Positions 16,821 to 46,500 are shown, counted from the whole stretch's first letter. The stretch: DNA of 62,956 nt, filler included, from Babesia bigemina (GCF_000981445.1; 8 parts of 8 records of this genome joined end to end with filler, not necessarily neighbours in it); one strand, 5' to 3'. Program-made: numbers and translations. The notes: generated by a model not told the origin, from the letters alone.

Positions 16821-16879
16821 CGAATTACCTCGCCATAATACCGCTATGACCTCTTTAAACCATAGCAATAACTTGTGCC

Positions 16880-19800
16880 TTGTCACCCTTCACCTCCCTT
16901 CTGACTGAGTCCATCGACTGGTTGATCCAGGTTAGGTATGGGAATGGTGGTAACAATGGCCTTGGTGAGTTGTCTCAAGCTTTGAAGACGTTGATTGAGG
17001 AGGCTATAAGTAACGCTACTAACTCCCTCCAATCCGAAAAGTCTAAACTTGAATGCCCTGTTAAGTATAAGGGAGATGAGTCCACTTGCCAGGCTATGGA
17101 TAGGCAAATTAAGGAAGCCAAGGACGCTAAAAATTCTGTTCATCCTAAAACTCAAATTCCAATAACTGAACTTGAAAAACAAAAACAACGCTGCCAAAAT
17201 AACCACACTTATTACCGTGACGGTTCCAAGCAGAAAGCGTATGAGGACATTGAAGAGCGTCAGAAACAACTTGAAGATCTTAAAAGTAAGCTTACTAAAT
17301 TCACTGAAGAACTCAATAAAGACGGTAATAATAATATTTTAACGCATTTATGTGACGGCCTTCAGACTTTCCTAGGCTTCGACTCTGACACTAAAGGCTA
17401 CACTGGCCAGGGGATTGTGTACTCAGACCTGGATAGGCTGTGTGACGCGGTGATGGGATTTTTGAGTGGCGTGCTTAAGGATGTCAGCGAGAAACAGCCT
17501 TACAAAGTAGGCAAAGATATACTTGAAAACATTGTTACTGACTTTGAATCCAAATTATCCACCGGGCGTAAGGGTTTTGAGGTCATTGAGACGGTGGCGC
17601 AGAGGGTGCGGGAGTATAATGATACAGTAAGTGAAAGAAGCAGTGAGGTCAGAAAAAAGATAACAGATTTAGATGATGAAATGACAACAATACAAGATCA
17701 AATTAAGAAAACATATCCTACCAAAGAGGAAAAAGATGCTGAACCTCTTGCAGACAAAATTGAGAAATCTAAAATTGAAGTGACTGAGATGGTAGAAAAA
17801 TGTAAAAAGCTTGCCAAAACATTTAAAGCAGACTTATTTAATCTGAAAGATAAAATCAAAGATTTAGGCCATGAAGCAAACGAACAAATTAATAAAGCCA
17901 GAGACAATGTGGAGCGTGAAGGTCAGCGTCTTGGCAGAGTGCAGAAGAATGAGAAAGAACAGTACGAGGAGATGGAGACGAAAATTACAAGTGTTCTGTT
18001 AGTCGTAAAAGATAAGTTGAATCAGGAGATTAGGAGCCAGGTGAATGGACTTATCAGTCTACTAAATGAGAAGGTCAAAAACATTTTGAAGGAGTGTAGG
18101 CATATTTGTCGTACGCTTGAAAATTATCTTCTGGATCTGGATAAGTGGATGGAGACGGCCAAAACGTTCATTGATAATGTAATCGAAAAACAGGTGGGAG
18201 CAATAAAAAAAGAAGTTGATGAAGCCGCAAAAGATAGAAAGCCGAACCACAAGAAAAATCTGGACACATCAATCAGCGAACTGGAAGCTGGATTGAAGCA
18301 GAGAGTCACAGAGTTGGATACATGGAATAAGGCTGCAGGGAGCGCTGTTAGCGCGGCGAAGGAGAAGTGTAAGACAATTGGTGATATGGTGGAGACTAAA
18401 AGTGCAGGTAGTGACAAAATTCATGGGCTAGCGAAAACGATGCAGGAAAAGGCTGATAAGCTCAGGGAGGCGGCGAAGGAAGTTAAGAAGGAGATTGGTC
18501 AGTGGGTTAAAGCAGCGCTTACGCAGGTGAAAGAGATGGATGGAAAACTTAAGCATGATCTGGGTAAATTAAAAGAACAAATTAATCAAAAGATTGGGGA
18601 TTATGTTAGGGGTTATATTAAAGAAGTTAGAAGTAAAGTTAAGAGTATCGAGGGGGATACACGAAATCCGAAATCAGGTCTTTGGGGCGTTAAACAAAAA
18701 GTTAAAGATTATGCAGAAACTTATAAGAAATTTTACCAAAAGAATACAGGAATGGTGTATCAGTGGATTGAACAGATTTTGGAAAGCGGGGCGGTTGATT
18801 CGTATCTAACACATTATGGTACTACGGAGCGACAAAATGCAAAAAACAAGGTGAAGGAAAAGATTGCGGAGGTTGCTGAGACAGAGGTTGATACACAGCC
18901 CAAAGCAGAGGGAAACGTGAAAGCTACTCTGAATAACATTAAAGATTTTCTTACTAATTTCGCTGAGCGAGTCAAGATTAAACTAGCAGGTGGTGAGTTC
19001 ACTAAATTTGTTGATTCCGTGAGGAAGGATACTGGCATTGTTATGTCCGAAAAATCGCATCTCGAAGCTGCGGTCAAAATTATACTGCGGCTAGTCGCCA
19101 CTGCTGCTTCGAAGCTTGCCAATGAAATTAATGAATTGGCGTTGAAGCAGGATAAGGATAGCCTTGGTCAATACTTGGATGACGCTCTTGATGTTGCGGG
19201 GACGCTTGAGCAGAATCTAGGTGATGCATTTCAGTCGACAAACGATCATGTCGGAAATGTCACCTCACCTGCTTTAAACGATAATATTCCGAAGCTGATC
19301 ATTGCGATATTGAATGGAGAGTTACCTGCCGCTAAAGGTGACAAGGTAGGAGAACAGGTTACGCTGAAAAATGTTAAGGGGTTTTCACAATATAACGCCT
19401 ACATCAATCAACAAAATTTAAACCTCACCGATCCTAGAGCCGCTCTAACCGGTGTGGACGATGACACCGAGGGCACCCTCCCCGCGGCGATCGGTGATAT
19501 TGAGAGGCAGGTGACGAGTAAGCTTACTGCTGGTGACCTCGCATCAGAAATAGATAAATCGACCACTTTCCAATCCCCCTTCGACCAAATCACCACGAAA
19601 CTAAAAGAAATCGCCGGGCTGGTTGACAGCGCTACAAAAACAACCACGAAAGTGCAAGGCGGTCAAGATTCAAACGACGGCATCCAACAATACTTAGGTG
19701 CGCTTGATGAAATGCGTACCGGTGGAGGTACTGTCAACCTCACCGCAAAGGGCTTGGAAAGTCACGCCCCCGTCAAAGGCCTCGAGACGATCAAAAATGA

Positions 19801-22800
19801 TATTGGCCTGCTGCAAACCAAGAACATTGAGAATGTGAAACACAACCTCAATGAGCTCTGCGCAGCGGTGAGATGGGCAGCCAACGAGGTCAACTGGTTT
19901 ATGAGGGAGATGAAAAAAGGGCAGATTGATGAGAAACTGGCTGGGATCAGGAAACAAATCGACGACCTACGTGTCAAGGAGATACAGGGTACTATCACCC
20001 TATGCACTGACTTTCTTCAAAAAGCCACTGAATCAGGACAAGTTACAATCAAGGCACTTGAAAAATATGTCGATGAACAAGTTGCCGACGCCATTAAAAC
20101 ACTCACCACCCAGGCCAAAAAGCACTACGTCTCCACCCTCAAGACTGAGCTGCAAAACTTCACCGCCAGAGTTCAGGGCCACTTGACGGGACTGACGACG
20201 CTGATCGACAAGGATCTGACCATTGGTTACAAGGGGCTGATGAAGACTGTGCAGGGGGTTAAGTTTATTGTTGAACACAAAAAGGAAGCTGAGTTCTACA
20301 CGTCGGGAGGTACTAAGCTGTTTGATGCAATTAAGAACGCTGTACCTCCGCCACCCGAGCAAGAGAGGCCAACCAAGGAACATTTCAAGGCCTTAGTAGA
20401 TGCCTTCGAGCATTACTTCAACAATATCCACGGCTACGTCAAGGAAGAGATTTCGAGGCTGGACAAGCAGTACAAACAAACGCTTAATTACCAGCTAACA
20501 CACACTGAATCGAAATACCTTGAGAAGCTCTACACCTCCAGGCTCAACGCTGCACATACCGCGATCAACAACCTACTTGATCACATTAATACAAGCCACC
20601 GCTATAACCACGAACTCCCCGCCTTGCTTGACAGTCTCTCCTCCGCAACTGCCACCCTCGCTCCCGAATCCTTTGCCAGGACCACGACCCCCCTGCTTGA
20701 CGGTATCGGCAAGGGTGTTGAAGGATTTGTTAGTGAACTTGAAAAGGCCTACAATAATAGATATGATGGAGGCTCCGATGGCATAATATTAGTCGACGCA
20801 AGAACTACGAAAGTTACGGATGATGGCAAAAAGTGCGCTAAAGTGTGCCTCAACGTACTATCCATCTTGTATACGGAGTTAAACACATTGGTGAAGCATT
20901 GCCAGTCGTCATCCAGAAGTGAACAAATTAATAAATTGACCAATGTAGGCAAGTTCTTCCTTGACCAAGGCTACGATGTTTCCGACGATGGCGAGCAGAA
21001 TGGTGAATTGCAAGACGACAAGAGGATGACAGTGTTCTTCATCTACAAACGTCTTTTCGGATATGATGACAATCACATCTACAAAAAAGATAGATTCAAC
21101 CAAGAAATCGGCCCGCTTAAAACTTTACACGACTGCCTCCAAACATATTACCAAGTCGGCCACGTTGCCACTTCATCCTCCAAAAAAACACCATGTAGCA
21201 TATTCGAGATGCTATGTTGGCTATCTGGCCTGCCGTGCAATACGGTTTACACGGAGTTGTGGCGTGATGCTGTGAGTGACCTGTTTGTCGATCCAAAGAA
21301 GCAGACGACGGAAGATGATATAAGCATGTCGTTTGTCAGCGACGAACCCCTGCCGGCGTATCCCACCTCAATCGAATGTGATGCTGCACAGCGAGCAGTG
21401 AAGCGCCTATGCTCAAGGTCGTACGACGTTCTGATCAAAATAGTAGGTTACGGCAACGAACACACGACATACGCCGTCGACTACTGCGACAACAGTCTGC
21501 GTCTATCTTACCCATCCGATCCGTCACAGTGCCTTGAACTATTGCTGGACATCCTACGCAGATTGTTACCGGTGTTCAGATTCTTGCATAGCCAGTGCAA
21601 GCTGGAAACTAAACACTACGGTTGGTCGAATTGCCTGTACGGCAAGGATATCTTGACCGGTAAATCGCATTGTGATAAGCATCCAGATGACAAGCAAACC
21701 GACTGCCTGCCCAGATCACCGCTTCAATCGTACCTTAGTGATACGTTACCCGGCCACTTACCTCACAACCTAACTACCATGGGATGCAAATCCGTATGCA
21801 GCAACTGCCCCAAGGGCCTGCCTGGACAGCCGTGTCTGACACCACTTGGCTTCAGAGGTTTCTCTGGAAGTACGAAGCAAGGCAAAGAGCTATGCAAAGT
21901 GCTGACCAAATTCTTAGACAATTCGAATATTAACACGCTGTTCGGTCTGTTGCCTAAGCCGCCATCTACGTTGCCCGAACACTTCCAATTTGCGTTGTCG
22001 TTGGCCAATATGCTAAAGAATGACGGCTCTCGTACAAATGACGTCAAAACAGCCTTCGACAAATCAATCAACGAGGTGTCCATCGACCTGCATAAAAACT
22101 CAAGCAAATTAACAAGTGCGCTACGTAATGTGTATCTGAATGACCACAGCCATGAAGGCAATGCGCATCACAAAGCTAACGAAGCCGATCTGTACACGCT
22201 CTCAAAAACAACGTCGTGTATTCAACCAAACGATATGAATATTCACTGCGGTCCCTATCTCTCGTCTACATGTTTCGATACATACAACTATCTCGCAGAA
22301 AAACATTCCGATCTGTATCTCTCGTGGGCTGTGTATCTACCGTGGACTTTCTATAACTACCTGAAATCATTACTTGACGCCTTCCAACAAATTGATTGTG
22401 TTAACTTTGGATGTACCAGATGTCATTGTAAACCAGGTGGCCACGGTAAAGAATACAACTGTAAGTGCAACGCCTTAGTAACTTGTCGCGGCGTTATTAG
22501 TACATTCTACAGTTACGGATTCACATTTGGTAGCGCTAGCCAATTGATGCACACTGACAGCAGACGCTACTGCCGAAACTTCTACAACCAAATCTGTAAC
22601 GTACTGAAATCGCAACACTTCACCAAATTATTTGAGGAATGTGACAACTTCATTTGGACCATCAGAGAACCGTTCACCTACCTAGTGCTGGCTCTCTGGT
22701 CACTCTCCCTCTTCTACCTCATCTGCGTGATGATTGGCAGACTGGATGTGCTCCACATCAGGTCACACCTGAGGATACCGTCATCGCACAAGATAACAGC

Positions 22801-22864
22801 GCAGTCACTGTTGGCTGCAGCGCAAGTCGGAAGGCTTGCCAAGATATCGTATCTACAACCGTGA
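16880..22864 (+). CDS. ves1: VESA1-like antigen, gene 3 (about 1994 aa, tail type B); true start uncertain because the ORF opens at TTG
   Basis: ESIDWLIQVR, YSDLDRLCDAVMGFLSGVL, SPLQSYLSDTLPGHLPH, TM FTYLVLALWSLSLFYLICVMIG, tail GRLAKISYLQP. Confidence 0.8.
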   Translation: MSPFTSLLTESIDWLIQVRYGNGGNNGLGELSQALKTLIEEAISNATNSLQSEKSKLECPVKYKGDESTCQAMDRQIKEAKDAKNSVHPKTQIPITELEKQKQRCQNNHTYYRDGSKQKAYEDIEERQKQLEDLKSKLTKFTEELNKDGNNNILTHLCDGLQTFLGFDSDTKGYTGQGIVYSDLDRLCDAVMGFLSGVLKDVSEKQPYKVGKDILENIVTDFESKLSTGRKGFEVIETVAQRVREYNDTVSERSSEVRKKITDLDDEMTTIQDQIKKTYPTKEEKDAEPLADKIEKSKIEVTEMVEKCKKLAKTFKADLFNLKDKIKDLGHEANEQINKARDNVEREGQRLGRVQKNEKEQYEEMETKITSVLLVVKDKLNQEIRSQVNGLISLLNEKVKNILKECRHICRTLENYLLDLDKWMETAKTFIDNVIEKQVGAIKKEVDEAAKDRKPNHKKNLDTSISELEAGLKQRVTELDTWNKAAGSAVSAAKEKCKTIGDMVETKSAGSDKIHGLAKTMQEKADKLREAAKEVKKEIGQWVKAALTQVKEMDGKLKHDLGKLKEQINQKIGDYVRGYIKEVRSKVKSIEGDTRNPKSGLWGVKQKVKDYAETYKKFYQKNTGMVYQWIEQILESGAVDSYLTHYGTTERQNAKNKVKEKIAEVAETEVDTQPKAEGNVKATLNNIKDFLTNFAERVKIKLAGGEFTKFVDSVRKDTGIVMSEKSHLEAAVKIILRLVATAASKLANEINELALKQDKDSLGQYLDDALDVAGTLEQNLGDAFQSTNDHVGNVTSPALNDNIPKLIIAILNGELPAAKGDKVGEQVTLKNVKGFSQYNAYINQQNLNLTDPRAALTGVDDDTEGTLPAAIGDIERQVTSKLTAGDLASEIDKSTTFQSPFDQITTKLKEIAGLVDSATKTTTKVQGGQDSNDGIQQYLGALDEMRTGGGTVNLTAKGLESHAPVKGLETIKNDIGLLQTKNIENVKHNLNELCAAVRWAANEVNWFMREMKKGQIDEKLAGIRKQIDDLRVKEIQGTITLCTDFLQKATESGQVTIKALEKYVDEQVADAIKTLTTQAKKHYVSTLKTELQNFTARVQGHLTGLTTLIDKDLTIGYKGLMKTVQGVKFIVEHKKEAEFYTSGGTKLFDAIKNAVPPPPEQERPTKEHFKALVDAFEHYFNNIHGYVKEEISRLDKQYKQTLNYQLTHTESKYLEKLYTSRLNAAHTAINNLLDHINTSHRYNHELPALLDSLSSATATLAPESFARTTTPLLDGIGKGVEGFVSELEKAYNNRYDGGSDGIILVDARTTKVTDDGKKCAKVCLNVLSILYTELNTLVKHCQSSSRSEQINKLTNVGKFFLDQGYDVSDDGEQNGELQDDKRMTVFFIYKRLFGYDDNHIYKKDRFNQEIGPLKTLHDCLQTYYQVGHVATSSSKKTPCSIFEMLCWLSGLPCNTVYTELWRDAVSDLFVDPKKQTTEDDISMSFVSDEPLPAYPTSIECDAAQRAVKRLCSRSYDVLIKIVGYGNEHTTYAVDYCDNSLRLSYPSDPSQCLELLLDILRRLLPVFRFLHSQCKLETKHYGWSNCLYGKDILTGKSHCDKHPDDKQTDCLPRSPLQSYLSDTLPGHLPHNLTTMGCKSVCSNCPKGLPGQPCLTPLGFRGFSGSTKQGKELCKVLTKFLDNSNINTLFGLLPKPPSTLPEHFQFALSLANMLKNDGSRTNDVKTAFDKSINEVSIDLHKNSSKLTSALRNVYLNDHSHEGNAHHKANEADLYTLSKTTSCIQPNDMNIHCGPYLSSTCFDTYNYLAEKHSDLYLSWAVYLPWTFYNYLKSLLDAFQQIDCVNFGCTRCHCKPGGHGKEYNCKCNALVTCRGVISTFYSYGFTFGSASQLMHTDSRRYCRNFYNQICNVLKSQHFTKLFEECDNFIWTIREPFTYLVLALWSLSLFYLICVMIGRLDVLHIRSHLRIPSSHKITAQSLLAAAQVGRLAKISYLQP

Positions 22865-23027
22865 TCATCGTCACATTTGTAATTCACAGCAACTCACTTA
22901 GCGAATCACCTACTCACCTAACCGACAAACGTAGTCTAATGTCTCGAATTACTCTAGCGGCAAACTGTGAACTAAATAGCGTTGAAATTAGGTGATGACT
23001 GAACGACCATGCAACGTGCTAACCTAG

Positions 23028-23475
23028 CACTCAGGCAAAGTGCTAACCTAGCACCCAGGCAAAGTGCTGAGCTAGCACCCAGGCAACGTGGTAAGGTAGC
23101 ATCCAGGCAAAGTGGTAAGCTAGCAACCAGGCAAAGTGCTAAGCTAGCAACCAGGCAAAGTGCTAAGCTAGCACACAGGCTAAGTGGTAAGCTAGCAACC
23201 AGGCAGAGTGGTAAGCTAGCAACCAGGCAACGTGCTAAGCTAGCACACAGGCGAAGTGATAAGCTAGCACACAGGCTAAGTGGTAAGCTAGCAACCAGGC
23301 AGAGTGGTAAGCTAGCAACCAGGCAACGTGCTAAGCTAGCACACAGGCGAAGTGATAAGCTAGCACCCAGGCTAAGTGATAACCTAGCACACAGGCAACG
23401 TGGTAAGCTAGGAACCAGGCAAAGTGGTAAGCTAGCACCCGGGCTAAGTGCTAACCTAGCACCCAGGCTAAGTGT
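23028..23475 (+). repeat. 24-bp tandem array D (CAGGCAAAGTGCTAAGCTAGCACC)
   Basis: Period 24; found only after tail-B genes. Confidence 0.95.
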
Positions 23476-23735
23476 TGACCAAGCACCTGACCAAAGTGGT
23501 GACCAAGTTGGTGACCAACGTGTTGACCAAGGTGCTGACCAATGTGCTGACCAGAGTGGTGACCAATGTCATGACCAGAGTGGTGACCAATGTGCTGACC
23601 AACGTGTTGACCAATGCCATGACCAACGTGTTGACCAACATGGTGACCAAGCACCTGACCAAAGTGCTGACCAATGTGCTGACCAAGGTGCTGACCAATG
23701 TGCTGACCAAAGTGCTGACCAAGCACCTGGCCAAG
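23471..23735 (+). repeat. 12-bp array C
   Basis: TGACCAA every 12 nt, in phase with array D. Confidence 0.95.
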
Positions 23736-23740
23736 TTGAT

Positions 23741-23897
23741 GTTACGGCAGCGATGACATGGTTACGGCAGCGATGACATGGTCACGGCGGCGATGACATG
23801 GACACGGCAGCGATGACATGGACACGGCAGCGATGACATGGTTACGGCAGCGATGACATGGACTCGGCAGCGATGACATGGACTCGGCAGCGATGAC
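23741..23897 (+). repeat. 20-bp array B
   Basis: CGGCAGCGATGACATGG units. Confidence 0.95.
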
Positions 23898-23920
23898 AGT
23901 GGTGACCTAAGTGGTGATTA

Positions 23921-24558
23921 TTATCCACTCTACATCGCTCCTTATCCACTCCACATCGCTCCCTAACCCACTCTACATCGCCCCTTAACCCACTCTACAT
24001 CGCCCATTTATCCACTCTACATCGCCCCTTATCCACTCTACATCGCCCCTTTATCCACTCTACATCGCTCCCTTACGCACTCCACATCGCTCCCTTACCC
24101 ACTCTACATCGCCCCTTAACCCACTCCACATCGCTCCTTAACCCACTCTACATCGCTCCTTTATCTACTCTACATCGCTCCCTAATCCACTCTACAACGC
24201 TCCCTAACCCACTCTACATCGCTCCCTAACCCACTCTACATCGCCCCTTAACCCACTCTACATCGCCCCTTAACCCACTCTACATCGCTCCTTAACCCAC
24301 TCTACATCGCCCCTTAACCCACTCTACATCGCCCCTAATCCACTCTCCATCGCTCCCTTATCCACTCTTCATCGCTCCCTAATCCACTCTACATCGCCCC
24401 TTTACCCACTCTACATCGCTCCCTAACCCACTCTACATCGCCCCTTTACCCACTCTACATCGCTCCTTTATCCACTCCACATCGCCCCTTACCCACTCTA
24501 CATCGCCCCCTAACCCACCCTACATCGCCCCTTAACCCACTCTACATCGCCCCTAAAC
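23921..24558 (+). repeat. 22-bp array A downstream of gene 3
   Basis: Period-22 units following the junction GTGGTGACCTAAGTGGTGATTATT. Confidence 0.97.
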
Positions 24559-24658
24559 NNNNNNNNNNNNNNNNNNNNNNNNNNNNNNNNNNNNNNNNNN
24601 NNTTAATTAATTAANNNNNNNNNNNNNNNNNNNNNNNNNNNNNNNNNNNNNNNNNNNN

Positions 24659-25090
24659 CCACTCTACATCGCCCCTTACCCACTCTACATCGCCCCTTTA
24701 TCCACTCTACATCGCCCCTTAACCCACTCTACATCGCCCCTTAACCCACTCTACATCGCTCCTTTATCCACTCTACATCGCCCCTTTACCCATGCTACAT
24801 CGCTCCTTAATCCACTCTACATCGCTCCCTTACCCACTCAACATCGCTCCCTAATCCACTGTACATCGCTCCCTAACCCACTCCACATCGCCCCTTTATC
24901 CACTCTACATCGCCCCTTTACCCACTCCACATCGCCCCTTTACCCACTCTACATCGCTCCTTTACCCACTCTACATCGCTCCCTAACCCACGCTACATCG
25001 CTCCCTTATCCACTCTACATCGCCCCTTAACCCACTCTACATCGCTCCTTAACCCACTCTACATCGCCCCTTTACCCACTCCACATCCCT
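24659..25090 (+). repeat. 22-bp array A upstream of gene 4
   Basis: Period-22 units. Confidence 0.97.
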
Positions 25091-34717: not shown

Positions 34718-34776
34718 CGAATTACCTCGCCATATTACCGCTATGACTTCTATAAACCATAGCAATAACTTGTGCC

Positions 34777-37700: not shown

Positions 37701-40269
37701 AGACAGATCGATAAGGTCATCCAGCAATGGTAGAGAAAAACTAAAAAATCTATCGGATGCATTTAAAACATACTTGAATACTTTCTACGAATACATTAAA
37801 TTCGAAGTCACAGACGCAACCAAAACAGTAACCAACCCCCCTCCCACCGTGCCACCCACCGACCCAGCCAACAAGCTAACCAAAATCAAAACTAACTTCG
37901 ACAAATTACTTACTCATTCAAGTAACTCAAATGACTCTAAAAAGTATAATTATGACAATGATTTCGTTAAATTACGTGAGTCCCTCTCCACCTCCCTCCA
38001 CCATTTATCCCCCTCCGCCTTCGCCAACCCCCGGCACCCGGAGCTGCTCGATGCGGTTAGAGCGGGGCTGCAGGGGTTTGTCAAGGAGATGGAGCGGGTG
38101 TATGTGAACGGGTATGATGGAGGGGAGGATATCATAATAGTAGATGCAAGAAATCAAAAAGTAACCGATGACGGCAAAAAATGCGCAAAAGTATGTCTGA
38201 CATTGTTCTCCACACTTCATCACGTATTAAGTGTATTAAGGAAATATTGTTATCGCACATGTAAATATATGCAAATTAACAAATCAACTGAACTTGGCAG
38301 CTTTTTCAGCAAGCAAGGATACTGTATATCCGACCGAGGTGAACAAAACGGTGAATTGCAGGACAAAATTAGTATGCAAGGAACAAAAGTACATAGTTTA
38401 CTTGCCGGGCAATTAAATACTGTTTACAACTCCAACAAGGGATTCAAAAATGCTCTTGAAAAGCTTAACGACTACCTTACCGATTATTACCAAGTCAGGC
38501 ACATCTCCACTTTCACTGCCAAGAGACGACCATGCAACGTATTCGAAATGCTCTGTTGGCTCTCTGGGTTACCGTGCAATGCAGTGTATGAAGATATGCT
38601 GAGTGGAGCTGTGAGTGACCTATTCGAAGATCCAAGTAAGCAGGTCGCGGTTGAAGATGAAGGCCATGAAATCACAGTTTCAGACATGAGACAAGACTCC
38701 ATACCGGCGCACCCGTACAACATGTCATATGATGACACGCAAAAAGCAATAACACGTCTTTGCTCGAAATCATACGATGTTCTGGCAAGAATCCTCGGCA
38801 CCGGAGACGCGTACTCCATGTACGCCGTCGACTACTGCAGCAATGCACTAAATCTTCATTACCCGCCTAAAGGTGAAGATTGCCTTCATCTGCTGCTTGA
38901 CGTCCTTCACAGATTATTACCGTCGCTTAGATTCTTGTATAGGCAATGCGGCGTACGTGCTGCGTACTACGGATGGGCTGATTGCCATTACGGTAAACAG
39001 GTCGGATGTGCCAACTGGCCATGCAAGGATCATCCAACTAACAAAGCAGCGTGCGAACCAAACGGTCAAGCAACGTGCCAGGCAAATAGTCAACCAAATT
39101 GCCGGCCAACTTCTCCTTTAATGTCTTACCTCAATGACTGTTTACCCGGTCACTTGCCTCATCAGCTGCGTACCATAGGCTGCAAAACGGAATGCGCAAC
39201 CTGTCCGAAGTCCAAGCCTGGCATGTCATGTTTGGTACCGCTTGGGTTTAGGCGTTTCTCCGGCCAGTCACGTACAGGCAAGGAACTGTGTGATACACTG
39301 GAGAATTTCTTCTCCAATTCATATATCACAACACTATTTTGCCTTATGCCAAAACCGCCATCTACACTTGCTGAACACATGAGCTTCGCAATGAACTATT
39401 TTGGAAAGTGGCAGACGGACACATCAAGAAATATAAACGGTCTTCAAGTAGCATTCGAGAAATCAATGAAGAAGCTATCAATACATCAAGTCGAGGATGC
39501 GAGCAACTTGAGAAGTGCGCTCAGAGATATCTATGGAACAAAGCACAACAATGAGCCCAGCAAGCTGTCATCTCATCAGGACTCGAAACATGCCGATTTG
39601 TGGAGTGTCTGCCTACCTAACGAAACAAAGCCATGCTCCGATTTGAAGCACCAATGCGCTCCTTATATCTCCTCAACTTCTTCCGATGCGTACAATTACC
39701 TTGCTGAGAAGCATTCAGATCTATACCTCTCATGGGCTATATATCTACCGTGGACATTCTACAGCTGCCTGAAATCCTTGCTGGATGCTTTCCAACAAAT
39801 AGATTGCGGAAGCTCTGGTTGCACTAAATGTTCATGCAAGCCGGGAACACATGGCGTAGAATTAAACTGCACGTGCAACGCATTGATAAGCTGCCGTGGC
39901 GTGACGCCTACATTCTACCAATATGGTTTCACATTTGGATACACTAAAAGCATATACGGTACAGACAGAAAATACTGCCGCAATTTCAACACGCAATTAA
40001 GCAACGTGCTTAAATCCGACTACTTCACCAAATTATTTGAGGAATGTGACAACTTCTTATGGATCATCAGAGCACCATTCTCCTACCTTGTGCTCACCCT
40101 CTGGCTCCTCTCTTTCCTCTACCTCATCCACATCATGGTCATCCGCCTTGACCTGCTCCACATCAAATCGCATCTGCATAGTCCCTCATCACATCGCATA
40201 GCTGCTCAATCTTTACTTGCTGCTGGACGCGTTAACAAGCTTAACAGGGTGTTTTACCTGCAACCATAA
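34777..40269 (+). CDS. ves1: VESA1-like antigen, gene 5 (about 1830 aa, tail type A); ORF opens at TTG
   Basis: ESIDWLIQVRHGNG, YSDLDRLCDAVMGFLSGVL, SPLMSYLNDCLPGHLPH, TM and NKLNRVFYLQP. Confidence 0.8.
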   Translation: MSPFTSLLTESIDWLIQVRHGNGDGDKGLTKLSQALKKLIEEAIEKATNSLNAEKSKLECPVKYAGHPSNCAYIDKLMKHAKDSDNVDQPKNVFTKQQITDMKNKCIASHSRRYDDATKKALDGIKERQKQLDELKKKLEAFIGKDNSAEECKNLLENLCDGLETFLGFNPSSKGYTGNGIVYSDLDRLCDAVMGFLSGVLEAVKDENEVTTYDQYISGEDKKLKSVLDTLNNNIGSGRHGLVASVAEVKGWLEGYETQIKAYNAGVTSTLDRLKYNINDDLSSINERKSLADQHDSWKSSVTKYASNIKQAKIASTNLDNKLKNDLEVPLRNISSVLVFMKKSAESTDLRSQAATLDDDVVKIENEIITQIEIRSQGIRDKLHDEFCEMEAKIRTLNDTRKERIKVMKQAIREFRRLIDVHFGDYRDSYKKKIMKTFIDIKTLLSNVNKTEALTGAKDGNSWLKQKVVKIREELEATGAELARYLKNATNLIQAAERLRLEAETKATDAYDKLKLHSTLDKKIGEIVLAKGNITAAPGAAKTKLKSLVEHITKAVGKLDEKIKDDLADLKLEVRSGIASYVTGLVDKIVEAAGKASLGSISASNSGVEFLKSAEGIKDKGSLGKALNYIVNNGNTNREQTYLEAGLYYLKRTKDEWNKIVNRKINITSDLSKDLKDAASQAFLEADTDATNVKKLMHAYNIHVTDHQNNTLATAIADLEKYALTEMTSIVTSKTTEIGKAIGEVRTEVNAIKDILRSDKNHDVIHTLKQLHDTIGQHDTKAGDDSLGKLMIKMDKLQQADLSESLAGRIQKAILGVIDNVNMLELVPEDIEEKRKEVGNLVDDLKAGLSHNISNVIKVIIDTDTALDAATEELHKRVLSARQTLQGYITRVQVDISDELKHIFKSLTAEVRRLYAKRHEAYLKELQKIVQAALADAAVIIDANLKSGVKGLMRWMKGEIDYYGIERSPNKLEYLDRSIRSSSNGREKLKNLSDAFKTYLNTFYEYIKFEVTDATKTVTNPPPTVPPTDPANKLTKIKTNFDKLLTHSSNSNDSKKYNYDNDFVKLRESLSTSLHHLSPSAFANPRHPELLDAVRAGLQGFVKEMERVYVNGYDGGEDIIIVDARNQKVTDDGKKCAKVCLTLFSTLHHVLSVLRKYCYRTCKYMQINKSTELGSFFSKQGYCISDRGEQNGELQDKISMQGTKVHSLLAGQLNTVYNSNKGFKNALEKLNDYLTDYYQVRHISTFTAKRRPCNVFEMLCWLSGLPCNAVYEDMLSGAVSDLFEDPSKQVAVEDEGHEITVSDMRQDSIPAHPYNMSYDDTQKAITRLCSKSYDVLARILGTGDAYSMYAVDYCSNALNLHYPPKGEDCLHLLLDVLHRLLPSLRFLYRQCGVRAAYYGWADCHYGKQVGCANWPCKDHPTNKAACEPNGQATCQANSQPNCRPTSPLMSYLNDCLPGHLPHQLRTIGCKTECATCPKSKPGMSCLVPLGFRRFSGQSRTGKELCDTLENFFSNSYITTLFCLMPKPPSTLAEHMSFAMNYFGKWQTDTSRNINGLQVAFEKSMKKLSIHQVEDASNLRSALRDIYGTKHNNEPSKLSSHQDSKHADLWSVCLPNETKPCSDLKHQCAPYISSTSSDAYNYLAEKHSDLYLSWAIYLPWTFYSCLKSLLDAFQQIDCGSSGCTKCSCKPGTHGVELNCTCNALISCRGVTPTFYQYGFTFGYTKSIYGTDRKYCRNFNTQLSNVLKSDYFTKLFEECDNFLWIIRAPFSYLVLTLWLLSFLYLIHIMVIRLDLLHIKSHLHSPSSHRIAAQSLLAAGRVNKLNRVFYLQP

Positions 40270-40392
40270 TCGTACTCACGTGTTTACTATCTACACTCAC
40301 CTAACATCACCTACTCACCTATCTAACGGATTGTCATCTAATGTTTTGTATCACTCATTAATTGTTGTATGTGATTGTGTAATAGTTAAATA

Positions 40393-40460
40393 AAGTGCTA
40401 ACCAAAGTGCTGACCAAGGTGCTGACCAAGGTGCTGACCAAGGTGCTGACCAAAGTGGTA
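40393..40460 (+). repeat. short 12-bp array C with no array B following
   Basis: About 5 GTGCTGACCAAG units, then directly AAGTGGTAATTATTATCCAC. Confidence 0.9.
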
Positions 40461-40464
40461 ATTA

Positions 40465-42112
40465 TTATCCACCTTACATCGCCCCTTTATCCACTCTACA
40501 TCGCCCCTTAACCCACTCTACATCGCTCCTTTACCCACTCCACATCGCCCCTTTATCCACTCTACATCGCTCCTTTATCCACTCTACATCGCTCCTTAAC
40601 CCACCCTACATCGCCCCTTTATCCACTCTACATCGCCCCTTAACCCACTCTACATCGCCCCTTTATCCACTCTACATCGCCCCTTTACCCACTCTACATC
40701 GCTCCCTAAACCACTCTACATCGCTCCTTAACCCACTCTACATCGCCCCTTATCCACTCCACATCGCCCCTTAACCCACTCTACATCGCTCCCTAACCCA
40801 CACTACATCGCCCCTTAACCCACTCCACATCGCTCCTTATCCACTCTACATCGCCCCTTAACCCACTCTACATCGCTCCTTTATCCACTCTACATCGCTC
40901 CTTTATCCACTCTACATCGCTCCTTAACCTCCTCTAATCGCCCCTTTACCCACACTACATCGCCCCTTTATCCACTCCACATCGCTCCTTTACCCACTCC
41001 ACATCGCCCCTTTATCCACTCTACATCGCCCCTTTATCCACTCTACATCGCCCTTTATCCACTCTACATCGCTCCTTTATCCACTCTACGTCGCCCTTTA
41101 TCCACTCTACATCGCCCCTTTACCCACTCCACATCGCCCCTTGATCCACTCCACATCGCCCCTTAACCCACTCTACATCGCTCCCTTATCCACTCTACAT
41201 CGCTCCCTTATCCACTCCACATCGCTCCCTAACCCACTCTACATCGCTCCTTTACCCACTCCACATCGCCCCTTTATCCACTCTACATCGCTCCTTTATC
41301 CACTCTACATCGCTCCTTAACCCACCCTACATCGCCCCTTTATCCACTCTACATCGCCCCTTAACCCACTCTACATCGCCCCTTTATCCACTCTACATCG
41401 CCCCTTTACCCACTCTACATCGCTCCCTTAACCCACTCTACATCGCCCCTTTACCACCTTACATCGCTCCTTAACCCACTCCACATCGCTCCCTAACCCA
41501 CTCTACATCGCCCCTTTATCCACTCTACATCGCTCCCTAGCCCACTCCACATCGCCCCTTAACCCACTCTACATCGCCCTTTATCCACTCTACATCGCCC
41601 CTTTACCCACTCCACATCGCCCCTTGATCCACTGCACATCGCCCCTTAACCCACTCTACATCGCTCCCTTATCCACTCTACATCGCTCCCTTATCCACTC
41701 CACATCGCTCCCTAACCCACTCTACATCGCTCCTTTACCCACTACACATCGCCCCTTTATCCACTCTACATCGCTCCTTTATCCACTCTACATCGCTCCT
41801 TAACCCACCCTACATCGCCCCTTTATCCACTCTACATCGCCCCTTAACCCACTCTACATCGCCCTTTATCCACTCTACATCGCTCCTTTATCCACTATAC
41901 GTCGCCCTTTATCCACTCTACATCGCCCCTTTACCCACTCTACATCGCTTCCTAACCCACTCCACATCGCTCCTTTACCCACTCCACATCGCCCCTTAAC
42001 CCACCTTACATCGCTCCTTATCCACTCTACATCGCCCCTTTATCCATCTTACATCGCTCCTTTACCCACTGTACATCGCTCCCTAACCCACTGTACATCG
42101 CTCCTTTACCCA
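40465..42112 (+). repeat. 22-bp array A downstream of gene 5
   Basis: Period-22 units with internal block duplications. Confidence 0.97.
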
Positions 42113-42212
42113 NNNNNNNNNNNNNNNNNNNNNNNNNNNNNNNNNNNNNNNNNNNNTTAATTAATTAANNNNNNNNNNNNNNNNNNNNNNNNNNNNNNNN
42201 NNNNNNNNNNNN

Positions 42213-43544
42213 TAACCCACTCTACATCGCCGCTTATCCACTCTACATCGCCCCTTTGTACACTCCTCATCGCCCTTAACCCACCTTACATCGCTCCTTT
42301 ATCCACTCTACATCGCTCCTTTATCCACTCTACATCGCTCCCTAATCCACTCTACATCGCCCCTTAACCCACTCCACATCGCCCCTTTAACCACTCTACA
42401 TCGCTCCTTTAACCACTCTACATCGCTCCTTATCCACCTGACATCGCTCCTTTATCCACTCCACATCGCTCCCTAACCCACTCTACATCGCTCCTTTATC
42501 CACTCTACATCGTTCCCTAACCCACTCTACATCGCCCCTTAACCACTCTACATCGCTCCTTATCCACTCTACATCGCCCCTTTACCCACTCCACATCGCC
42601 CCTTAACCCACTCTTCATCGCTCCTTAACCCACTCTACATCGCTCCCTAACCCACTCTACATCGCCCCTTTATCCACTCTACATCGCCCCTTAACCCACT
42701 CTACATCGCTCCTTTATCCACTCTACATCGCTCCTTTATCCACACTACATCGCCCCTTTATCCACTCTACATCGCCCCTTTATCCAATCTACATCGCTCC
42801 CTAACCCACTCTACATCGCCCCTTTACCCACTCTACATCGCTCCTTAACCCACTCTACATCGCTCCCTAACCCACTCTACATCGCTCCCTAACCCACTCT
42901 ACATCGCTCCCTAACCCACTCTACATCGCTCCCTAACCCACTCCACATCGCTCCTTTATCCACCTTACATCGCCCCTTAACCCACTCCACATCGCTCCTC
43001 TGACCACTCTACATCGCCCCTTTACCCACTCCACATCGCCCCTTTATCCACTCTACATCGCCCCTTTATCCACTCTACATCGCCCCTTAACCCACTCTAC
43101 ATCGCTCCCTTATCCACGCTACATCGCTCCTTTATCGACTATACATCGCCCTTTACCCACTCTACATCGCTCCTTTATCGACTATACATCGCCCTTTACC
43201 CACTCTACATCGCTCCTTAACCCACTCCACATCGCTCCCTAACCCACTCTACATCGCCCCTTTATCCACTCCACATCGCCCCTTTATCCACTCCACATCG
43301 CCCCTTTATCCACTCTACATCGCCATTTAACCCACTCTACATCGCTCCTTAACCCACTCTACATCGCTCCCTAACCCACTCTACATCGCCCCTTTATCCA
43401 CTCCACATCGCCCCTTTATCCACTCCACATCGCTCCTTAACCCACTCCACATCGCCCCTTTAACCACTCTACATCGCTCCCTAACCCACTCTACATCGCC
43501 CCTTAACCCACTCTACATCGCCCCTTTACCCACTCTACATCGCC
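42213..43544 (+). repeat. 22-bp array A upstream of gene 6, fused directly to coding sequence
   Basis: ...CTACATCGCC is immediately followed by AATTAAGTCCCTTAATGCC. Confidence 0.97.
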
Positions 43545-43548
43545 AATT

Positions 43549-46500
43549 AAGTCCCTTAATGCCGAAAAATCTAAGCTTTCTTGCCCCTTCAAATACTCTG
43601 ATAAGGAGACTAATTGTCAGTACTACGAGAAGCAGATTGATGACACTACTAAGAAGCTTAAAGACGCTGGAAAATCCGAAAAAGAAATCAAGGAGAATTA
43701 CAATATTAAGTTTAATACAAAATGTATAAATGACTGTATAAATGCTCACAAAAAACATCCTCCATCTGCTGCCTTGAAGTCTGTTGAAGAGAAGATTGTC
43801 CAGCTTGGTACCCTTGCTGGACAGCTTGGAGGATTTGTTGGTGAGAGTGAGAGTGTTAAGAAAGCCGTTAAGAATGCTATTAAAGCTTGTTTCGACACTA
43901 ATAAAGACCTTAAAAATGACCTAAATGATGTTTACTCTCCTTATGTTACTAGCCTTTCTGTGTCTGACAAGCCTGCTGGCCAGGCTGATGACACCCAGAA
44001 AATTAGTGAGCTTAGTAAGCGAGTTACTCAGCAAATTATGCTTCTTGAAGAACAACTTAAACAGCATAATAACCTTAATAATCTTCTCTCTTCCCCCTCT
44101 CCCTCTGCTGACTCAGCCAAATTGTCCTCCAAGTTGGAGGCTTTGAGGAAAGTGAAGGAGCTTTGTGATTTTTTCACTAATTCTGAAAAGCATCCAAATG
44201 ATCCTAAAAACCTCTTAGATAACCTCTGCACTGGCCTCGAAACCTTCCTCGGCTTCAACCCTTCTTCCAAAGGCTACGACGGCTCTGGTATTGTGTACTC
44301 TGACTTGGACAGGCTGTGTGACGCGGTGATGGGATTTTTGAGTGGTGTGCTTGGTGCGGTGAAAAACACTCAGACATACAATGTCGGTAAAAATACATTA
44401 AATTCGGTAAGTAATGAAATTAAGCAATATCTTTGCTCAGGGCACGAGGGTTTTAAAACGCTTTTCACCAAGTTGCCTGATCGCATCGCGGAGTATAACA
44501 GGGAAGTGCAGCGGTCTAACAATAGAGTTAGAAGCATTGTAACTACAATGCAGAGCAATATGAAGAACCTGGAAACGGAGGTGAGTGCAATAACTATAGT
44601 TAATGCTGTTGCAGGAAAATCAATACAAATTGGGCAAGCGGAATGGTTAGTCAAGCAGAAGTTGGCGGACTGTTGGAAATATGTTGAGACTTTTACCAGT
44701 AGTTTAGATATTAACACAAATTCCATTGATGATAGAAACGCGATTAATGACCTTAATAGTAGCTTACGTGAAAAAATCGAAAATGTACGTGTGACGATAG
44801 AGCATGAGAATAAGCGTCTCACTGAGCTGTCTAAAAAGGAAAGGGAGGAGTTAACGGCGACGAAAGATTTCCTTAATGAAGAGGTCGAGAAACTTAAGAA
44901 GCGTTTACATACGACAATTGATAAGCATATGAATGAACTGGTCGAGCATTTGAAGAAATTAGTGAGAGATATTCTCGTTCTGCTGGAGAGCCTTGGCAAA
45001 AAGTTTCGGGACTATGTAGAAGCACTACGGCAATGGATTGAAAAAACAGAGAGAGTCATGAATGACGCTGAGAAGCAGATTGATATAGTGTTGGGACACG
45101 CGAATGGAACTGAGAGCATATATGCGCAGCTAGTCAAATCAACAGCTGAGCAAATTGAGAAGGAAGCCGGATTGCTACACTTGGAGTTTGAGAATTTGAA
45201 AGACAAGTATATTGACGTATATGAGAAAGTGCATGGAGCAGAAGGAGCGGCGAAAAAACTCGCAACGTTTCATGAGACCGTTAAGCAGAGCGTTCAGAAC
45301 AAAAAGTGGAGTGATTTTCAAAAAGGTGCAAATAGTGGGTGGGATTTACAAGAAATAGATAAGTATAAGCAGAATCTTGAAGAGGCAATTGAGGGATGTG
45401 TTAAAATAGAATTGCCAAATAAAATCCGTGATGCGCTTTTTAATTTGACCAATCCAATTACCACGCAGAGTGGCAAACCGTGTTCACTCGCTGACATAGT
45501 TAAGCAAATAGGGACGTATGCTTCAGGGTTTGAAAACAGATTTAGAATCGCCATTGAGAACATGGTTGGAGAAATTGTTGAGAGTGAAGGTATTAAGAAG
45601 TGGGTCGCATTGTATGTTAAATCAAATGTGGCTAGAGGGCAGTTGAGAGCAAATGGGCCTCACTCTGATGCGCAAAATCTGAATACTGCCATAGCGATTG
45701 TGAAAGATAAAATAACGAGTGAGATGAAGAGTGTTGTTCAGCGTGTGGTAGTAAGCGAACAAGATGTTAAAAGTAATATGGAAGCTGTACAACAGTGCCT
45801 TGTCACTTTGGCTACCACTGACGTGGCAGCTATGGGTCCAAGAATCATACAGCAAATAGATCAGGAAGTTAAACAGAAAATCAGGATAGATCCGTCTCAC
45901 ACCAAAACCTATCTTACATGGGCTGTCTCAACGGTCTTAGACCTACTTACAAAAGCTACCAATAAAGCAGCTACGGAACTTGGTCAGTTTACACGGACGT
46001 CGCAAATTGAGAAGTTGAGTGATAGTATAAGCGGTATTCACGGACTGGCCCAGAATCTTTCTATGCAGATTGCCCCGGGAAACGGTACGCTCGGCAGTCT
46101 TGGTCACCATATTTATAATTTGTTAAAAGAGAAAGTCAACGACAATTCAATAAAAAACTTTTTACGCGATCTTATCAAAGAGGCTGTAAGAAAAGGTGTG
46201 GATAAATTACAACATGAAATCCAGACGAACGTTATTACCGGAATTCTTAGTAAGATCGACAACAATCTCGAATCGCTTGAAAAACAAGCGCAAGCGGCAA
46301 GAGCAGGCATTGAAAGCCAAGCCAACATCGTAATCCGAAACCTCAATGAGCTCTGCGGCGCCATTAAACAAGCTGCTGAATACAGCAAGCAGAATTTGAA
46401 GAAATTAAAAGACGAACGCTTCAAACAATACACTAATGGAGCTGGGAATGCAAACGACAGCATCAAAAAAATCTTCACTGAACTTGGCGATCTGCACAGC

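What the first reader, a model, noticed from the sequence alone, without database searches (positions are those of the whole stretch)
16822..43780. Most antigen ORFs are intact but headless, joined to the upstream repeat at different depths
Seen: genes 3 and 5 open at TTG just before ESIDWLIQV. Genes 1 and 4 open after an equivalent TAATAA exactly 48 nt before a TTG, lack the SIDWLIQV head, and have their first Met only at VMGF. Gene 6 is fused directly to array A at about residue 49. Only gene 2 (own ATG) and gene 7 (linker ATG in frame) have a usable start. More than 5 kb of ORF is preserved in each. Inference: these are silent donor cassettes whose 5' end is supplied by an expression site, kept open by selection on the converted products.
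Basis: partly seen in the sequence, partly recalled or inferred. Interest (0 to 1): 0.75.

Follow-up and report, generated by a model that had tools for sequence, protein, structure and literature searches.

The report
Babesia ves1b genes with replaced heads
These are separate draft contigs of the cattle blood parasite Babesia bigemina, each holding one very large ves1b-type variant antigen gene whose normal start is replaced, at four different depths, by a shared short ATG-bearing leader next to a 22-base satellite; some copies can likely still start from that leader, while the deeper-cut ones are likely untranslated reservoir copies for recombination.

Summary
The sequence facts hold. Genes 3 and 5 open at TTG before SIDWLIQV. 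Genes 1 and 4 open after TAATAA, 48 nt before a TTG, with their first Met at VMGF. Gene 6 is fused to the 22-nt array. Only genes 2 and 7 have an in-frame ATG.

The "array" of genes is artificial. The window is eight separate contigs joined by N44-TTAATTAATTAA-N44 spacers.

The genes are Babesia bigemina ves1b-type antigens. Six of the seven complete genes carry a conserved 66-nt leader with its own ATG between the satellite and the gene body. The leader is joined at discrete depths that many paralogs elsewhere share. Canonical heads (KLTDCPENLRExIDWLIQV) occur in 17 of 24 chromosome-placed homologs but only 2 of 48 on small contigs.

In genes 3 and 5, removing 28 nt (GT..AG) joins the leader ATG in frame to SIDWLIQV. 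Public ab initio models of two paralogs use the same join. Genes 4 and 6 have no consistent start, and gene 1 is also broken at its 3' end.

Sharp mosaics show that these copies exchange segments with other paralogs, including a canonical chromosomal gene. No RNA data could be obtained.

The "silent donor" reading is partly supported. An expression site that supplies the head is not shown, and the leader sits in a different frame in each class, which argues against it.

The parts
7603..7702 (.). Artificial spacer N44-TTAATTAATTAA-N44. Identical spacers lie at 16006-16105, 24559-24658, 33250-33349, 42113-42212, 51090-51189 and 60125-60224. They separate independent contigs.
   Evidence: the piece lengths 8303 and 8453 equal the contig lengths on record for P0003 and P0123
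16106..16817 (+). 22-nt satellite array upstream of gene 3. The same unit lies upstream of every gene: 7178-7600 (gene 1, minus strand), 7703-8672, 24659-25087, 33350-34718, 42213-43544, 51190-53361.
16820..16885 (+). Conserved 66-nt leader of gene 3, with its ATG at 16846. That ATG opens a 20-codon frame that is out of frame with the gene body. Other leader ATGs lie at 7151 and 7015 (gene 1, minus strand), 8697, 25116, 34743 and 53390. Gene 6 has no leader.
   Evidence: (mean pairwise identity 0.82 over 21 pairs of 7 copies)
16882..16909 (+). Candidate 28-nt intron (GT..AG) in gene 3. Its removal would join leader ATG plus 12 codons in frame to SIDWLIQV. The same candidate lies at 34779-34806 in gene 5. 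It is predicted only; there is no RNA evidence.
   Evidence: public ab initio models P0132 and P0136 use this join in two paralogs
16859..22864 (+). Gene 3, class A. Open frame of 2001 codons, TTG at 16880, SIDWLIQV head, first Met at 17096. The public model P0123 starts at that Met.
25142..30403 (+). Gene 4, class B. The frame opens after TAATAA (25136-25141). The leader is joined at about residue 125 of a full-length relative. First Met at 25736 (VMGF).
34756..40269 (+). Gene 5, class A. Open frame of 1837 codons, TTG at 34777, first Met at residue 85.
43507..49482 (+). Gene 6, class D. The 22-nt array is fused directly to the coding body at about 43545 (about residue 50 of a full-length relative). 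There is no leader. First Met at 44038.
8731..14943 (+). Gene 2, class A with its own in-frame ATG (2070 aa, equal to public protein P0003). The leader ATG at 8697 lies upstream and out of frame. The AG of the 28-nt candidate is absent here.
53390..59047 (+). Gene 7, class C. The leader ATG is in frame and the leader is joined at about residue 270 (NNPTNILNNLC). Its 3' third is 82-100% identical to chromosomal BBBOND_0312140.
1357..6989 (-). Gene 1, class B with two leaders in a row. Open for 1687 codons down to a stop at 1926-1928. Three frame changes follow before the transmembrane tail, which ends at 1360. Residues 1057-1685 are about 100% identical to paralog P0109.
22865..24556 (+). 3' side of the gene 3 contig: a conserved flank of about 140 nt, then a 24-nt array (23006-23474), a 12-nt array (23487-23722), a 20-nt array (23744-23903) and a 22-nt array (23925-24556). 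The same order is seen on the contigs of genes 1, 2, 6 and 7; on gene 2's contig the record ends after the 20-nt array, so the closing 22-nt array is not seen there.

Best explanation
The stretch is a string of separate Babesia bigemina contigs, each with one ves1b-type variant antigen gene in which a conserved 66-nt ATG-bearing leader beside a 22-nt satellite replaces the canonical head at discrete depths; the leader likely serves as the gene's own first exon in classes A and C, while the deeper-cut copies (genes 4 and 6, and broken gene 1) likely cannot be translated where they lie and act as a recombination reservoir.

Shown directly:
- The four junction classes.
- The leader and its invariant ATG.
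- The intact 5-6 kb frames.
- The coding-type substitution pattern.
- The conserved blocks that bracket a hypervariable core: the LCDGL..VMGFLSGVL block, the transmembrane tail and the 3' flank.
- Mosaic tracts shared with other paralogs.

Inferred:
- Transcription starts near the leader.
- The 28-nt GT..AG in genes 3 and 5 is spliced, giving MTS..NNLCL-SIDWLIQV.
- Class B and D copies contribute only through segmental gene conversion, as described for B. bovis ves1.
- In the genome the contigs form head-to-tail satellite-separated arrays, probably near chromosome ends.
For: Family:
- Of the 119 listed non-self homologs, 72 are B. bigemina and 47 are B. ovata.
- Chromosomal members among them are labelled BbigVes1b in supplement file 3 of PMC4066756.
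- The tails are identical over 46-58 residues.

Leader:
- It is present in 6 of 7 complete genes, as 7 copies, all with ATG. Mean identity is 0.82, while synonymous sites in the gene bodies are saturated (pS 0.67-0.87).

The classes are shared across the genome, so they are not random truncations:
- Ten of the 48 small-contig homologs, plus P0128 and gene 7, read straight on from the leader ATG through the same 45-codon junction.
- About ten models carry the class B junction.
- B. ovata proteins P0007 and P0034 have a leader-like peptide in frame with SIDWLIQV.

Class A:
- In genes 3 and 5 a 36-nt first exon and a 28-nt GT..AG put SIDWLIQV in phase 0.
- Gene 2, which lacks that AG, has its own ATG.
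- Public models P0132 and P0136 use the same join.
- B. bovis ves1-alpha genes have two small 5' exons and two short introns (PMC2034396).

Reservoir role:
- Genes 1 and 4 share no donor/acceptor solution.
- Gene 6 has no leader.
- The mosaics between gene 1 and P0109 and between gene 7 and BBBOND_0312140 have sharp boundaries.
- Canonical heads occur in 17 of 24 chromosomal against 2 of 48 small-contig homologs.
Against: - No RNA evidence of any kind was available.
- The 28-nt intron would be very short. Its donor GTCACC is weak, and the branch-like CTGAC lies only 5 nt from the AG.
- Each gene offers 12-54 frame-restoring GT..AG pairs, so the mere existence of one is expected by chance.
- The public models are ab initio and disagree with one another. 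Gene 3 itself is modelled from its first Met.
- Variation inside the leader's 10 codons is mostly non-synonymous, so there is no sign that its peptide is under selection.
- The head of class A shows omega 0.49-1.15 over only 59-60 codons.
- The complementary pattern (ATG present or AG present) rests on three genes.
- All DNA comes from a draft assembly (8x capillary reads, corrected with Illumina reads).
Confidence: 0.45

Rival explanations
1. All of these copies are silent donor cassettes. They are never translated where they lie. Their frames are kept open because pieces, or the whole body, are copied into an active ves1b locus that supplies the promoter and head.
For: - Five of seven genes have no in-frame AUG in the unspliced frame.
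- At least nine further class-A-like paralogs are modelled with improvised starts.
- Canonical heads are concentrated on chromosomal copies, 17 of 24 against 2 of 48.
- Two universally conserved DNA blocks bracket the hypervariable core: the LCDGL..VMGF block (nucleotide identity 0.69-0.72 over 21 pairs) and the tail (0.72). Most exact matches of 35 nt or more between copies lie in these blocks.
- Mosaics are shared with a canonical gene for which peptides were detected.
- There is a precedent in B. bovis (PMC2034396; PMC6630957, passages read).
Against: - Silence was not tested.
- Every copy but gene 6 has its own ATG leader.
- The frame offsets of the classes differ, so a head joined through the leader cannot serve them all.
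- Gene 2 and class C (12 or more copies) can be translated as they stand.
- No tract longer than 53 nt is shared among the eight window genes.
- Six of seven frames are intact despite saturated synonymous divergence. That is hard to maintain through rare donor use alone.
Confidence: 0.3
2. The copies are recipients rather than donors. They are non-functional 5'-rearranged duplicates, and their frames look intact because they are repeatedly overwritten by gene conversion from selected, expressed ves1b genes.
For: - Gene 1 carries a fresh copy (608 aa exact) of another gene's 3' third, and within it a stop and three frame changes.
- Gene 7's 3' third nearly equals that of a canonical chromosomal gene.
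- dS is low in the 5' kilobase (0.13-0.37) but saturated in the core.
Against: - The hypervariable cores (about 1,300 columns of the eight-gene protein alignment) show no recent tracts among the window genes, yet they are all open.
- pN is below pS throughout.
Confidence: 0.1
3. The genes are translated where they lie by unconventional initiation. This could be the TTG of genes 3 and 5, leaky scanning or reinitiation after the leader's short frame, or the conserved internal Met of VMGF.
For: - The TTG of genes 3 and 5 sits at the codon where gene 2 and P0039 have ATG, with G at position -3.
- Eleven of 47 B. ovata models and 2 of 72 B. bigemina models start at the VMGF Met.
Against: - Those starts are annotation defaults (the first ATG in the open frame).
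- The region upstream of the first Met is kept open. Gene 1 against genes 3 and 5 gives omega 0.31-0.48 there, with bootstrap intervals below 1.
- UUG is a poor initiator in eukaryotes (general knowledge).
Confidence: 0.07
4. The odd 5' junctions are artefacts of assembling satellite-rich DNA from low-coverage capillary reads.
For: - All contigs end in satellites.
- Gene 1's three clustered frame changes lie inside an otherwise 100% identical tract, which could be consensus errors.
Against: - The same junction classes recur on many independent contigs and on chromosome III.
- The three class A copies share one frame relation.
Confidence: 0.03

Closest known systems
BbigVes1b, the ves1b branch of the Babesia variant erythrocyte surface antigen family (Jackson et al. 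2014, PMC4066756)
   Same: - Proteins of about 1,700-2,100 aa with the SIDWLIQV-type N-terminal motif, the universal GIVYSDLDRLCDGVMGFLSGVL block and a helical variable core.
- A Cys-rich C-terminal region, one hydrophobic helix and the conserved tail ..SHRIAAQSLLAA..YLQP. The tail is identical over 46-58 aa to proteins labelled BbigVes1b.
- Mosaic recombination, as that paper reports for ves1.
   Different: - The window copies and their nearest relatives are named 'hypothetical protein' in the public record.
- They lie on unplaced small contigs flanked by 22-, 20- and 12-nt satellites.
- They carry a leader in place of the canonical M..KKLTDCPENLRE head.
- I found no description of this architecture in the passages and sections I read or in four literature searches.
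Truncated non-LAT ves1 copies of Babesia bovis, proposed as 'functional pseudogenes' that feed segmental gene conversion (Brayton et al. 2007, PMC2034396; Allred 2019, PMC6630957; passages read)
   Same: - Incomplete family members outside the active locus.
- Short patches are copied into a transcribed gene.
- Conserved stretches are proposed as recombination sites.
   Different: - The B. bovis copies are often severely truncated, some under 312 aa. Here 5-6 kb frames are kept whole and only the head is replaced.
- No divergent gene pair with a bidirectional promoter is seen on these contigs.
- Neither the active locus nor conversion itself has been shown in B. bigemina.
Pneumocystis MSG arrays with the UCS expression site and the CRJE junction element (recalled; Keely 2005 and Stringer & Keely 2007 were seen only in a reference list)
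   Same: - Probably tandem arrays of large, intact surface antigen genes that lack a conventional start of their own.
- Each gene is preceded by a short conserved element.
   Different: - The leader here holds its own ATG.
- It is joined to the body at four depths and in three frames, so a single in-frame fusion to one upstream sequence cannot work for all.
- No unique expression site is known.
Trypanosoma brucei VSG cassettes bounded by 70-bp repeats and a conserved 3' end (recalled)
   Same: - A short-unit repeat array upstream and a conserved 3' coding end plus flank downstream of a hypervariable body.
- An archive far larger than the expressed set.
   Different: - VSG archives are mostly pseudogenes, whereas here 6 of 7 frames are intact.
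- The two are unrelated proteins in different phyla.
- Whether the 22-nt array acts as a recombination boundary is untested.

Membership tests
Babesia ves1 / BbigVes1b | Conserved C-terminal domain with a single transmembrane helix and a cytoplasmic tail (the region used to define ves1 homology in PMC4066756) | tested here: met
   Genes 2-7 end in ..ALWLLS(L/F)LYL.HIMVIRLDLLHIKSHLHSPSSHRIAAQSLLAA..YLQP, or the variant ..RIPSSHKITAQ..ISYLQP in genes 3 and 4. There are exact matches of 46-58 aa to proteins labelled BbigVes1b, such as P0016 and P0094. Gene 1 encodes the tail out of frame.
Babesia ves1 / BbigVes1b | Sequence homology to named BbigVes1b genes along the whole length | tested here: met
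   Hits at E = 1e-21 to 1e-103 to 72 B. bigemina proteins. Of these, P0016, P0062, P0068, P0074, P0079, P0085, P0094, P0096 and P0104 bear locus tags that supplement file 3 of PMC4066756 labels BbigVes1b.
Babesia ves1 / BbigVes1b | Canonical N-terminus M(x)3-5 K(K)LTDCPENLRE[AS]IDWLIQV | tested here: not met
   None of the 7 complete window genes has it. Genes 2, 3 and 5 keep only SIDWLIQV; genes 1, 4, 6 and 7 lack the motif. They are therefore filed as a head-replaced variant of the family.
Silent donor copy for segmental gene conversion (B. bovis model) | Not transcribed at its own locus | not testable with these tools
   No RNA run was listed. The published proteome search set appears to hold chromosomal genes only: no accession of another kind was found in supplement file 3.
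Silent donor copy for segmental gene conversion (B. bovis model) | Tracts of its sequence appear inside other, expressed family members | tested here: inconclusive
   Gene 7 residues 1418-1906 are 82-100% identical to BBBOND_0312140, for which 6 peptides were reported. The direction of transfer and the expression of that gene in this strain are unknown.
Silent donor copy for segmental gene conversion (B. bovis model) | Lacks a usable start of its own | tested here: inconclusive
   Met for genes 4 and 6. Gene 1 has no start shared with gene 4, although one GT..AG pair in it matches the join used in the public model P0029. Not met for genes 2 and 7. Genes 3 and 5 depend on an unproven 28-nt splice.
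Expression-site fusion system of the Pneumocystis MSG/UCS type | A conserved junction element at the start of every archive gene that allows in-frame fusion to one upstream sequence | tested here: not met
   A conserved element exists in 6 of 7 genes, but its frame relative to the body is 0, +1 or +2 depending on class, and the join depth differs.
Cassette bounded by repeats (VSG 70-bp type) | A repeat array upstream and a conserved 3' end downstream of a variable body | tested here: met
   A 22-nt array lies upstream on 7 of 7 contigs that include a 5' end. The tail and the 125-140 nt 3' flank are conserved in two types. 12-, 20- and 22-nt arrays follow. Any function in recombination is untested.

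The most novel reading that the evidence does not exclude
B. bigemina keeps a large satellite-bounded cassette archive of ves1b bodies. The 22-nt array plus leader on one side, and the conserved tail, 3' flank and 12/20-nt arrays on the other, are recombination handles. Through them whole bodies or segments move into a few canonical-head expression loci. That would be a VSG- or MSG-like duplicative system in an apicomplexan, which would explain why head-replaced copies stay open over 5-6 kb.
Probability: 0.2. Interest if true: 0.75.

Novelty: new variant of a known kind. Interest (0 to 1): 0.45.

Why it matters
How B. bigemina varies its erythrocyte surface antigen is much less worked out than in B. 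bovis.

If the satellite-flanked, leader-capped copies form a distinct compartment of the ves1b family, dozens of "hypothetical proteins" on unplaced contigs would belong to the antigen repertoire. In that case the published count of 80 BbigVes1b genes may understate the repertoire.

The public gene models for these copies use improvised starts, which would mislead transcript and proteome mapping.

The leader and the 28-nt candidate splice give a concrete test, with a yes-or-no answer, of whether these copies are expressed where they lie or only feed recombination.

Tried and rejected
- RNA evidence: the look-up of sequencing runs listed no RNA holder for 16750-22950, so read laying could not be used.
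- Own genome: none is held for this window, so paralog DNA outside the window could not be read. All paralog comparisons rest on protein records.
- Earlier scan notes: nothing by place, words or sequence.
- Pfam: no family reaches its cut-off for the whole proteins, the head, the C-terminal third or the small ORF at 31861-32328.
- Structure: the AlphaFold2 model of gene 2 residues 1-420 is all-helical (pLDDT 84.6, pTM 0.62). Foldseek against the PDB gave no match at E <= 0.001. This said nothing about the heads.
- Listing frame-restoring GT..AG pairs gave 12-54 per gene, so the presence of such a pair carries no weight.
- Exact-match search among the eight window genes found nothing longer than 53 nt. 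A first BLAST filter for high-identity HSPs found nothing because HSPs run across the mosaic boundaries. Exact peptide matches and windowed identity then found the mosaics.
- dN/dS over the whole genes is unusable because pS is saturated. Only the conserved blocks gave estimates.
- Literature: the supplements of PMC5660447 hold none of the four locus tags I searched. File 1 of the PMC4066756 supplements was not searchable. A search for Babesia intron-length data gave nothing usable.
- I considered the 22-nt array as a long intron with a distant first exon. I rejected it because the arrays reach 3.3 kb and the possible acceptor AG is present in only 3 of 7 leaders.

Full report
**What the window is**

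The window holds seven identical spacers (44 N, TTAATTAATTAA, 44 N) at 7603, 16006, 24559, 33250, 42113, 51090 and 60125. They cut it into pieces of 7602, 8303, 8453, 8591, 8763, 8877 and 8935 bp, plus a truncated eighth piece. The window's own proteins P0003 (gene 2) and P0123 (gene 3) are on record on contigs of 8303 and 8453 bp, exactly the lengths of pieces 2 and 3. The window is therefore a size-sorted string of independent small contigs, and the apparent tandem array of eight genes is artificial.

**Organism and family**

The first 500 residues of gene 2 find 139 proteins at E <= 0.001. Of the 120 listed, one is the gene itself, 72 are Babesia bigemina and 47 are B. ovata. Gene 1 shares a 608-residue exact stretch with a named B. 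bigemina protein.

Chromosome-placed homologs such as BBBOND_0312140, _0303890 and _0300080 are labelled "variant erythrocyte surface antigen (BbigVes1b)" in supplement file 3 of Jackson et al. 2014 (PMC4066756). The window genes end in the same transmembrane helix and tail, with 46-58 identical residues. Pfam holds no model for them.

**The observation**

All sequence statements were re-read and hold.
- Genes 3 and 5 are open from 16859 and 34756, with TTG at 16880 and 34777 just before SIDWLIQV. Their first Met is at residue 80 (gene 3) and 85 (gene 5).
- Genes 1 and 4 open after TAATAA, with a TTG 48 nt later and their first Met in VMGF.
- Gene 6 is joined directly to the 22-nt array at about residue 50 of a full-length relative.
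- Gene 2 has its own ATG (8731). Gene 7 reads on from the leader ATG (53390).
- The frames run 1687-2077 codons without a stop. The other five frames of the same DNA hold 50-220 stops each.
- Gene 1 is the exception to "intact". After its stop at 1926-1928 the homology continues through three frame changes to a perfectly preserved tail.

**Anatomy**

Every contig that includes a 5' end starts in the 22-nt satellite. In six of the seven complete genes a 66-nt leader follows. There are seven copies, because gene 1 has two in a row. Mean pairwise identity is 0.82 and all seven have the ATG.

Aligned to full-length relatives, the leader meets the gene body at discrete depths:
- Class A (genes 2, 3, 5): about residue 12.
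- Class B (genes 1, 4): about residue 125.
- Class C (gene 7): about residue 270.
- Class D (gene 6): no leader; the array itself is joined at about residue 50.

Downstream of the stop codon lie a conserved flank of 125-140 nt in two types that match the two tail types, and then 12-, 20- and 22-nt arrays.

Along the coding region, nucleotide identity among copies is 0.69-0.86 in the head. It is 0.69-0.72 in the universal LCDGL..GIVYSDLDRLCDGVMGFLSGVL block (all 21 pairs), 0.33-0.47 over about 1,200 alignment columns of core, and 0.72 in the tail.

**The classes are family-wide**

- On contigs of 0.8 Mb or more, 17 of 24 have the canonical head.
- On small contigs only 2 of 48 do (Fisher p = 3.4e-9).
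- Among the 48 small-contig proteins, 18 start at the leader ATG, and 10 of these read straight on through the class C junction. Another 25 have improvised starts and 2 start at the VMGF Met.
- P0128 adds an eleventh database class C copy.

The search drew its words from gene 2's first 500 residues, so this sample is not unbiased. A cluster of leader-type genes lies at one end of chromosome III by locus tag (BBBOND_0313880 to _0314050). The junctions are therefore old, inherited class markers and not independent truncations.

**Are the copies decaying?**

Overall amino-acid identity among the window genes is 22-40%, and synonymous sites in the body are saturated (pS 0.67-0.87). pN is below pS in every region and pair. 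Where dS can be measured, omega is 0.27-0.69 in the LCDGL block and 0.11-0.39 in the tail. Upstream of the first Met, gene 1 against genes 3 and 5 gives omega 0.31-0.48 with bootstrap intervals below 1. Genes 2, 4 and 6 give 0.73-0.87 with intervals that include 1. The 5' kilobase has much lower dS (0.13-0.37) than the core, which suggests that 5' ends have spread or been homogenised more recently.

**Exchange between copies**

Among the eight window genes no exact match exceeds 53 nt. Against database paralogs, however, the mosaics are sharp.
- Gene 1 is 15-45% identical to P0109 up to about residue 1015, then 96-100% identical from 1057 to 1685. The near-identity continues to the end of the tail apart from gene 1's three frame changes.
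- Gene 7 is 12-40% identical to BBBOND_0312140 up to about residue 1200. It is 94-100% identical at 1418-1617, 46% at 1618-1667, and 82-96% to the end.
- P0125 equals gene 5 over its first 45 residues and then follows gene 1 (94%).

BBBOND_0312140 has a canonical head, and 6 peptides were reported for it. Leader-type copies and canonical genes therefore share recent tracts. The direction of transfer is unknown.

**Can the copies start on their own?**

Relative to the body, the leader ATG is in frame 0 (gene 7), +1 (genes 1 and 4) or +2 (genes 2, 3 and 5).
- In genes 3 and 5, a 36-nt first exon (MTS.NHSNNLCL) followed by a 28-nt GT..AG (16882-16909; 34779-34806) puts SIDWLIQV in phase 0.
- Gene 2 lacks that AG but has its own ATG.
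- Two public models (P0132, P0136) make exactly this join.
- B. bovis ves1-alpha genes have two small 5' exons with short introns (PMC2034396).
- B. ovata proteins P0007 and P0034 read from an ATG through a leader-like peptide into SIDWLIQV.

Against this:
- The B. bigemina annotation is ab initio.
- Gene 3 itself is modelled from its first Met.
- Each gene has 12-54 frame-restoring GT..AG pairs.
- The 28-nt candidate has a weak donor.
- Genes 1 and 4 share no solution, and gene 6 has no leader.
- No RNA run could be found.

**Verdict**

I favour a mixed picture (0.45). This is a satellite-associated branch of the ves1b family with its own ATG-bearing leader. Classes A and C likely start from that leader. 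Class B and D copies, such as genes 4 and 6 and the broken gene 1, likely cannot be translated where they lie and persist as material for segmental recombination.

The pure archive reading stands at 0.3. It gains from the head distribution and the mosaics. It loses because every class carries its own leader ATG and because the differing frames exclude one shared upstream head joined at the leader.

The idea of donor pseudogenes is already in print for B. bovis (PMC2034396 and PMC6630957, passages read). What I did not find in print is the leader, its four junction classes and the satellite-bounded layout (searches; passages). Supplement file 1 of PMC4066756 could not be searched and may bear on this.

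Noticed in passing
window 7603-7702 and six further sites: The window is built from separate contigs in ascending order of length, joined by N44-TTAATTAATTAA-N44 spacers. Any finding that spans a spacer describes an artificial neighbourhood.
   Followed up: yes
window 1357-1928 (minus strand): The 3' end of gene 1 has an in-frame stop and three frame changes inside a tract that is otherwise about 100% identical to paralog P0109. This is either fresh decay or consensus errors in the draft.
   Followed up: partly
window 22700-23005, 30240-30550 versus 14780-15070, 40100-40400, 49320-49620, 58880-59170: There are two types of cytoplasmic tail: ..RIPSSHKITAQ..AKISYLQP in genes 3 and 4, and ..HSPSSHRIAAQ..NRVFYLQP in genes 2, 5, 6 and 7. 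Each goes with its own type of conserved 3' flank. This may relate to the recombinant 'ves1ba' forms mentioned in PMC4066756.
   Followed up: partly
window 31861-32328 (+): On the contig of gene 4, between a 75-nt and a 282-nt repeat, lies a 155-codon ORF with an ATG. It has a very Cys-rich first half, a Ser/Thr-rich linker, one hydrophobic helix and a short basic tail. No Pfam family reaches its cut-off.
   Followed up: partly
window 15070-15708 and 23003-23776 (+): The 12-nt and 24-nt arrays downstream of the genes are open in one sense frame for 212 and 257 codons. This is probably only because the units are multiples of three without stops.
   Followed up: no
window 6989-7015 (minus strand) and 25116-25181: In class B the leader ATG opens a strongly hydrophobic short frame (12-residue Kyte-Doolittle mean 3.0 in gene 1 and 2.6 in gene 4). 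It overlaps the main frame out of phase. Several public models of paralogs read this frame as an N-terminus.
   Followed up: partly
window 43540-43560: The junction in gene 6 between the last 22-nt unit (..CTACATCGCC) and the coding body coincides with a short shared CGC. The body then holds CCCTTAA, which also occurs in the satellite unit. This may be microhomology at the deletion joint.
   Followed up: no
window 40270-42112: The contig of gene 5 passes from about five 12-nt units straight into the 22-nt array without the 20-nt array. The contig of gene 4 has 75-nt and 282-nt repeats instead.
   Followed up: no
proteins P0012, P0018, P0030, P0037, P0041, P0042, P0053, P0059, P0095, P0097, P0118 (B. 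ovata): Eleven of the 47 B. ovata homologs, most of them about 3,100-3,600 aa long, are modelled from the Met of the VMGF/VMSF motif. The same lack of an upstream ATG may therefore exist in B. ovata.
   Followed up: no
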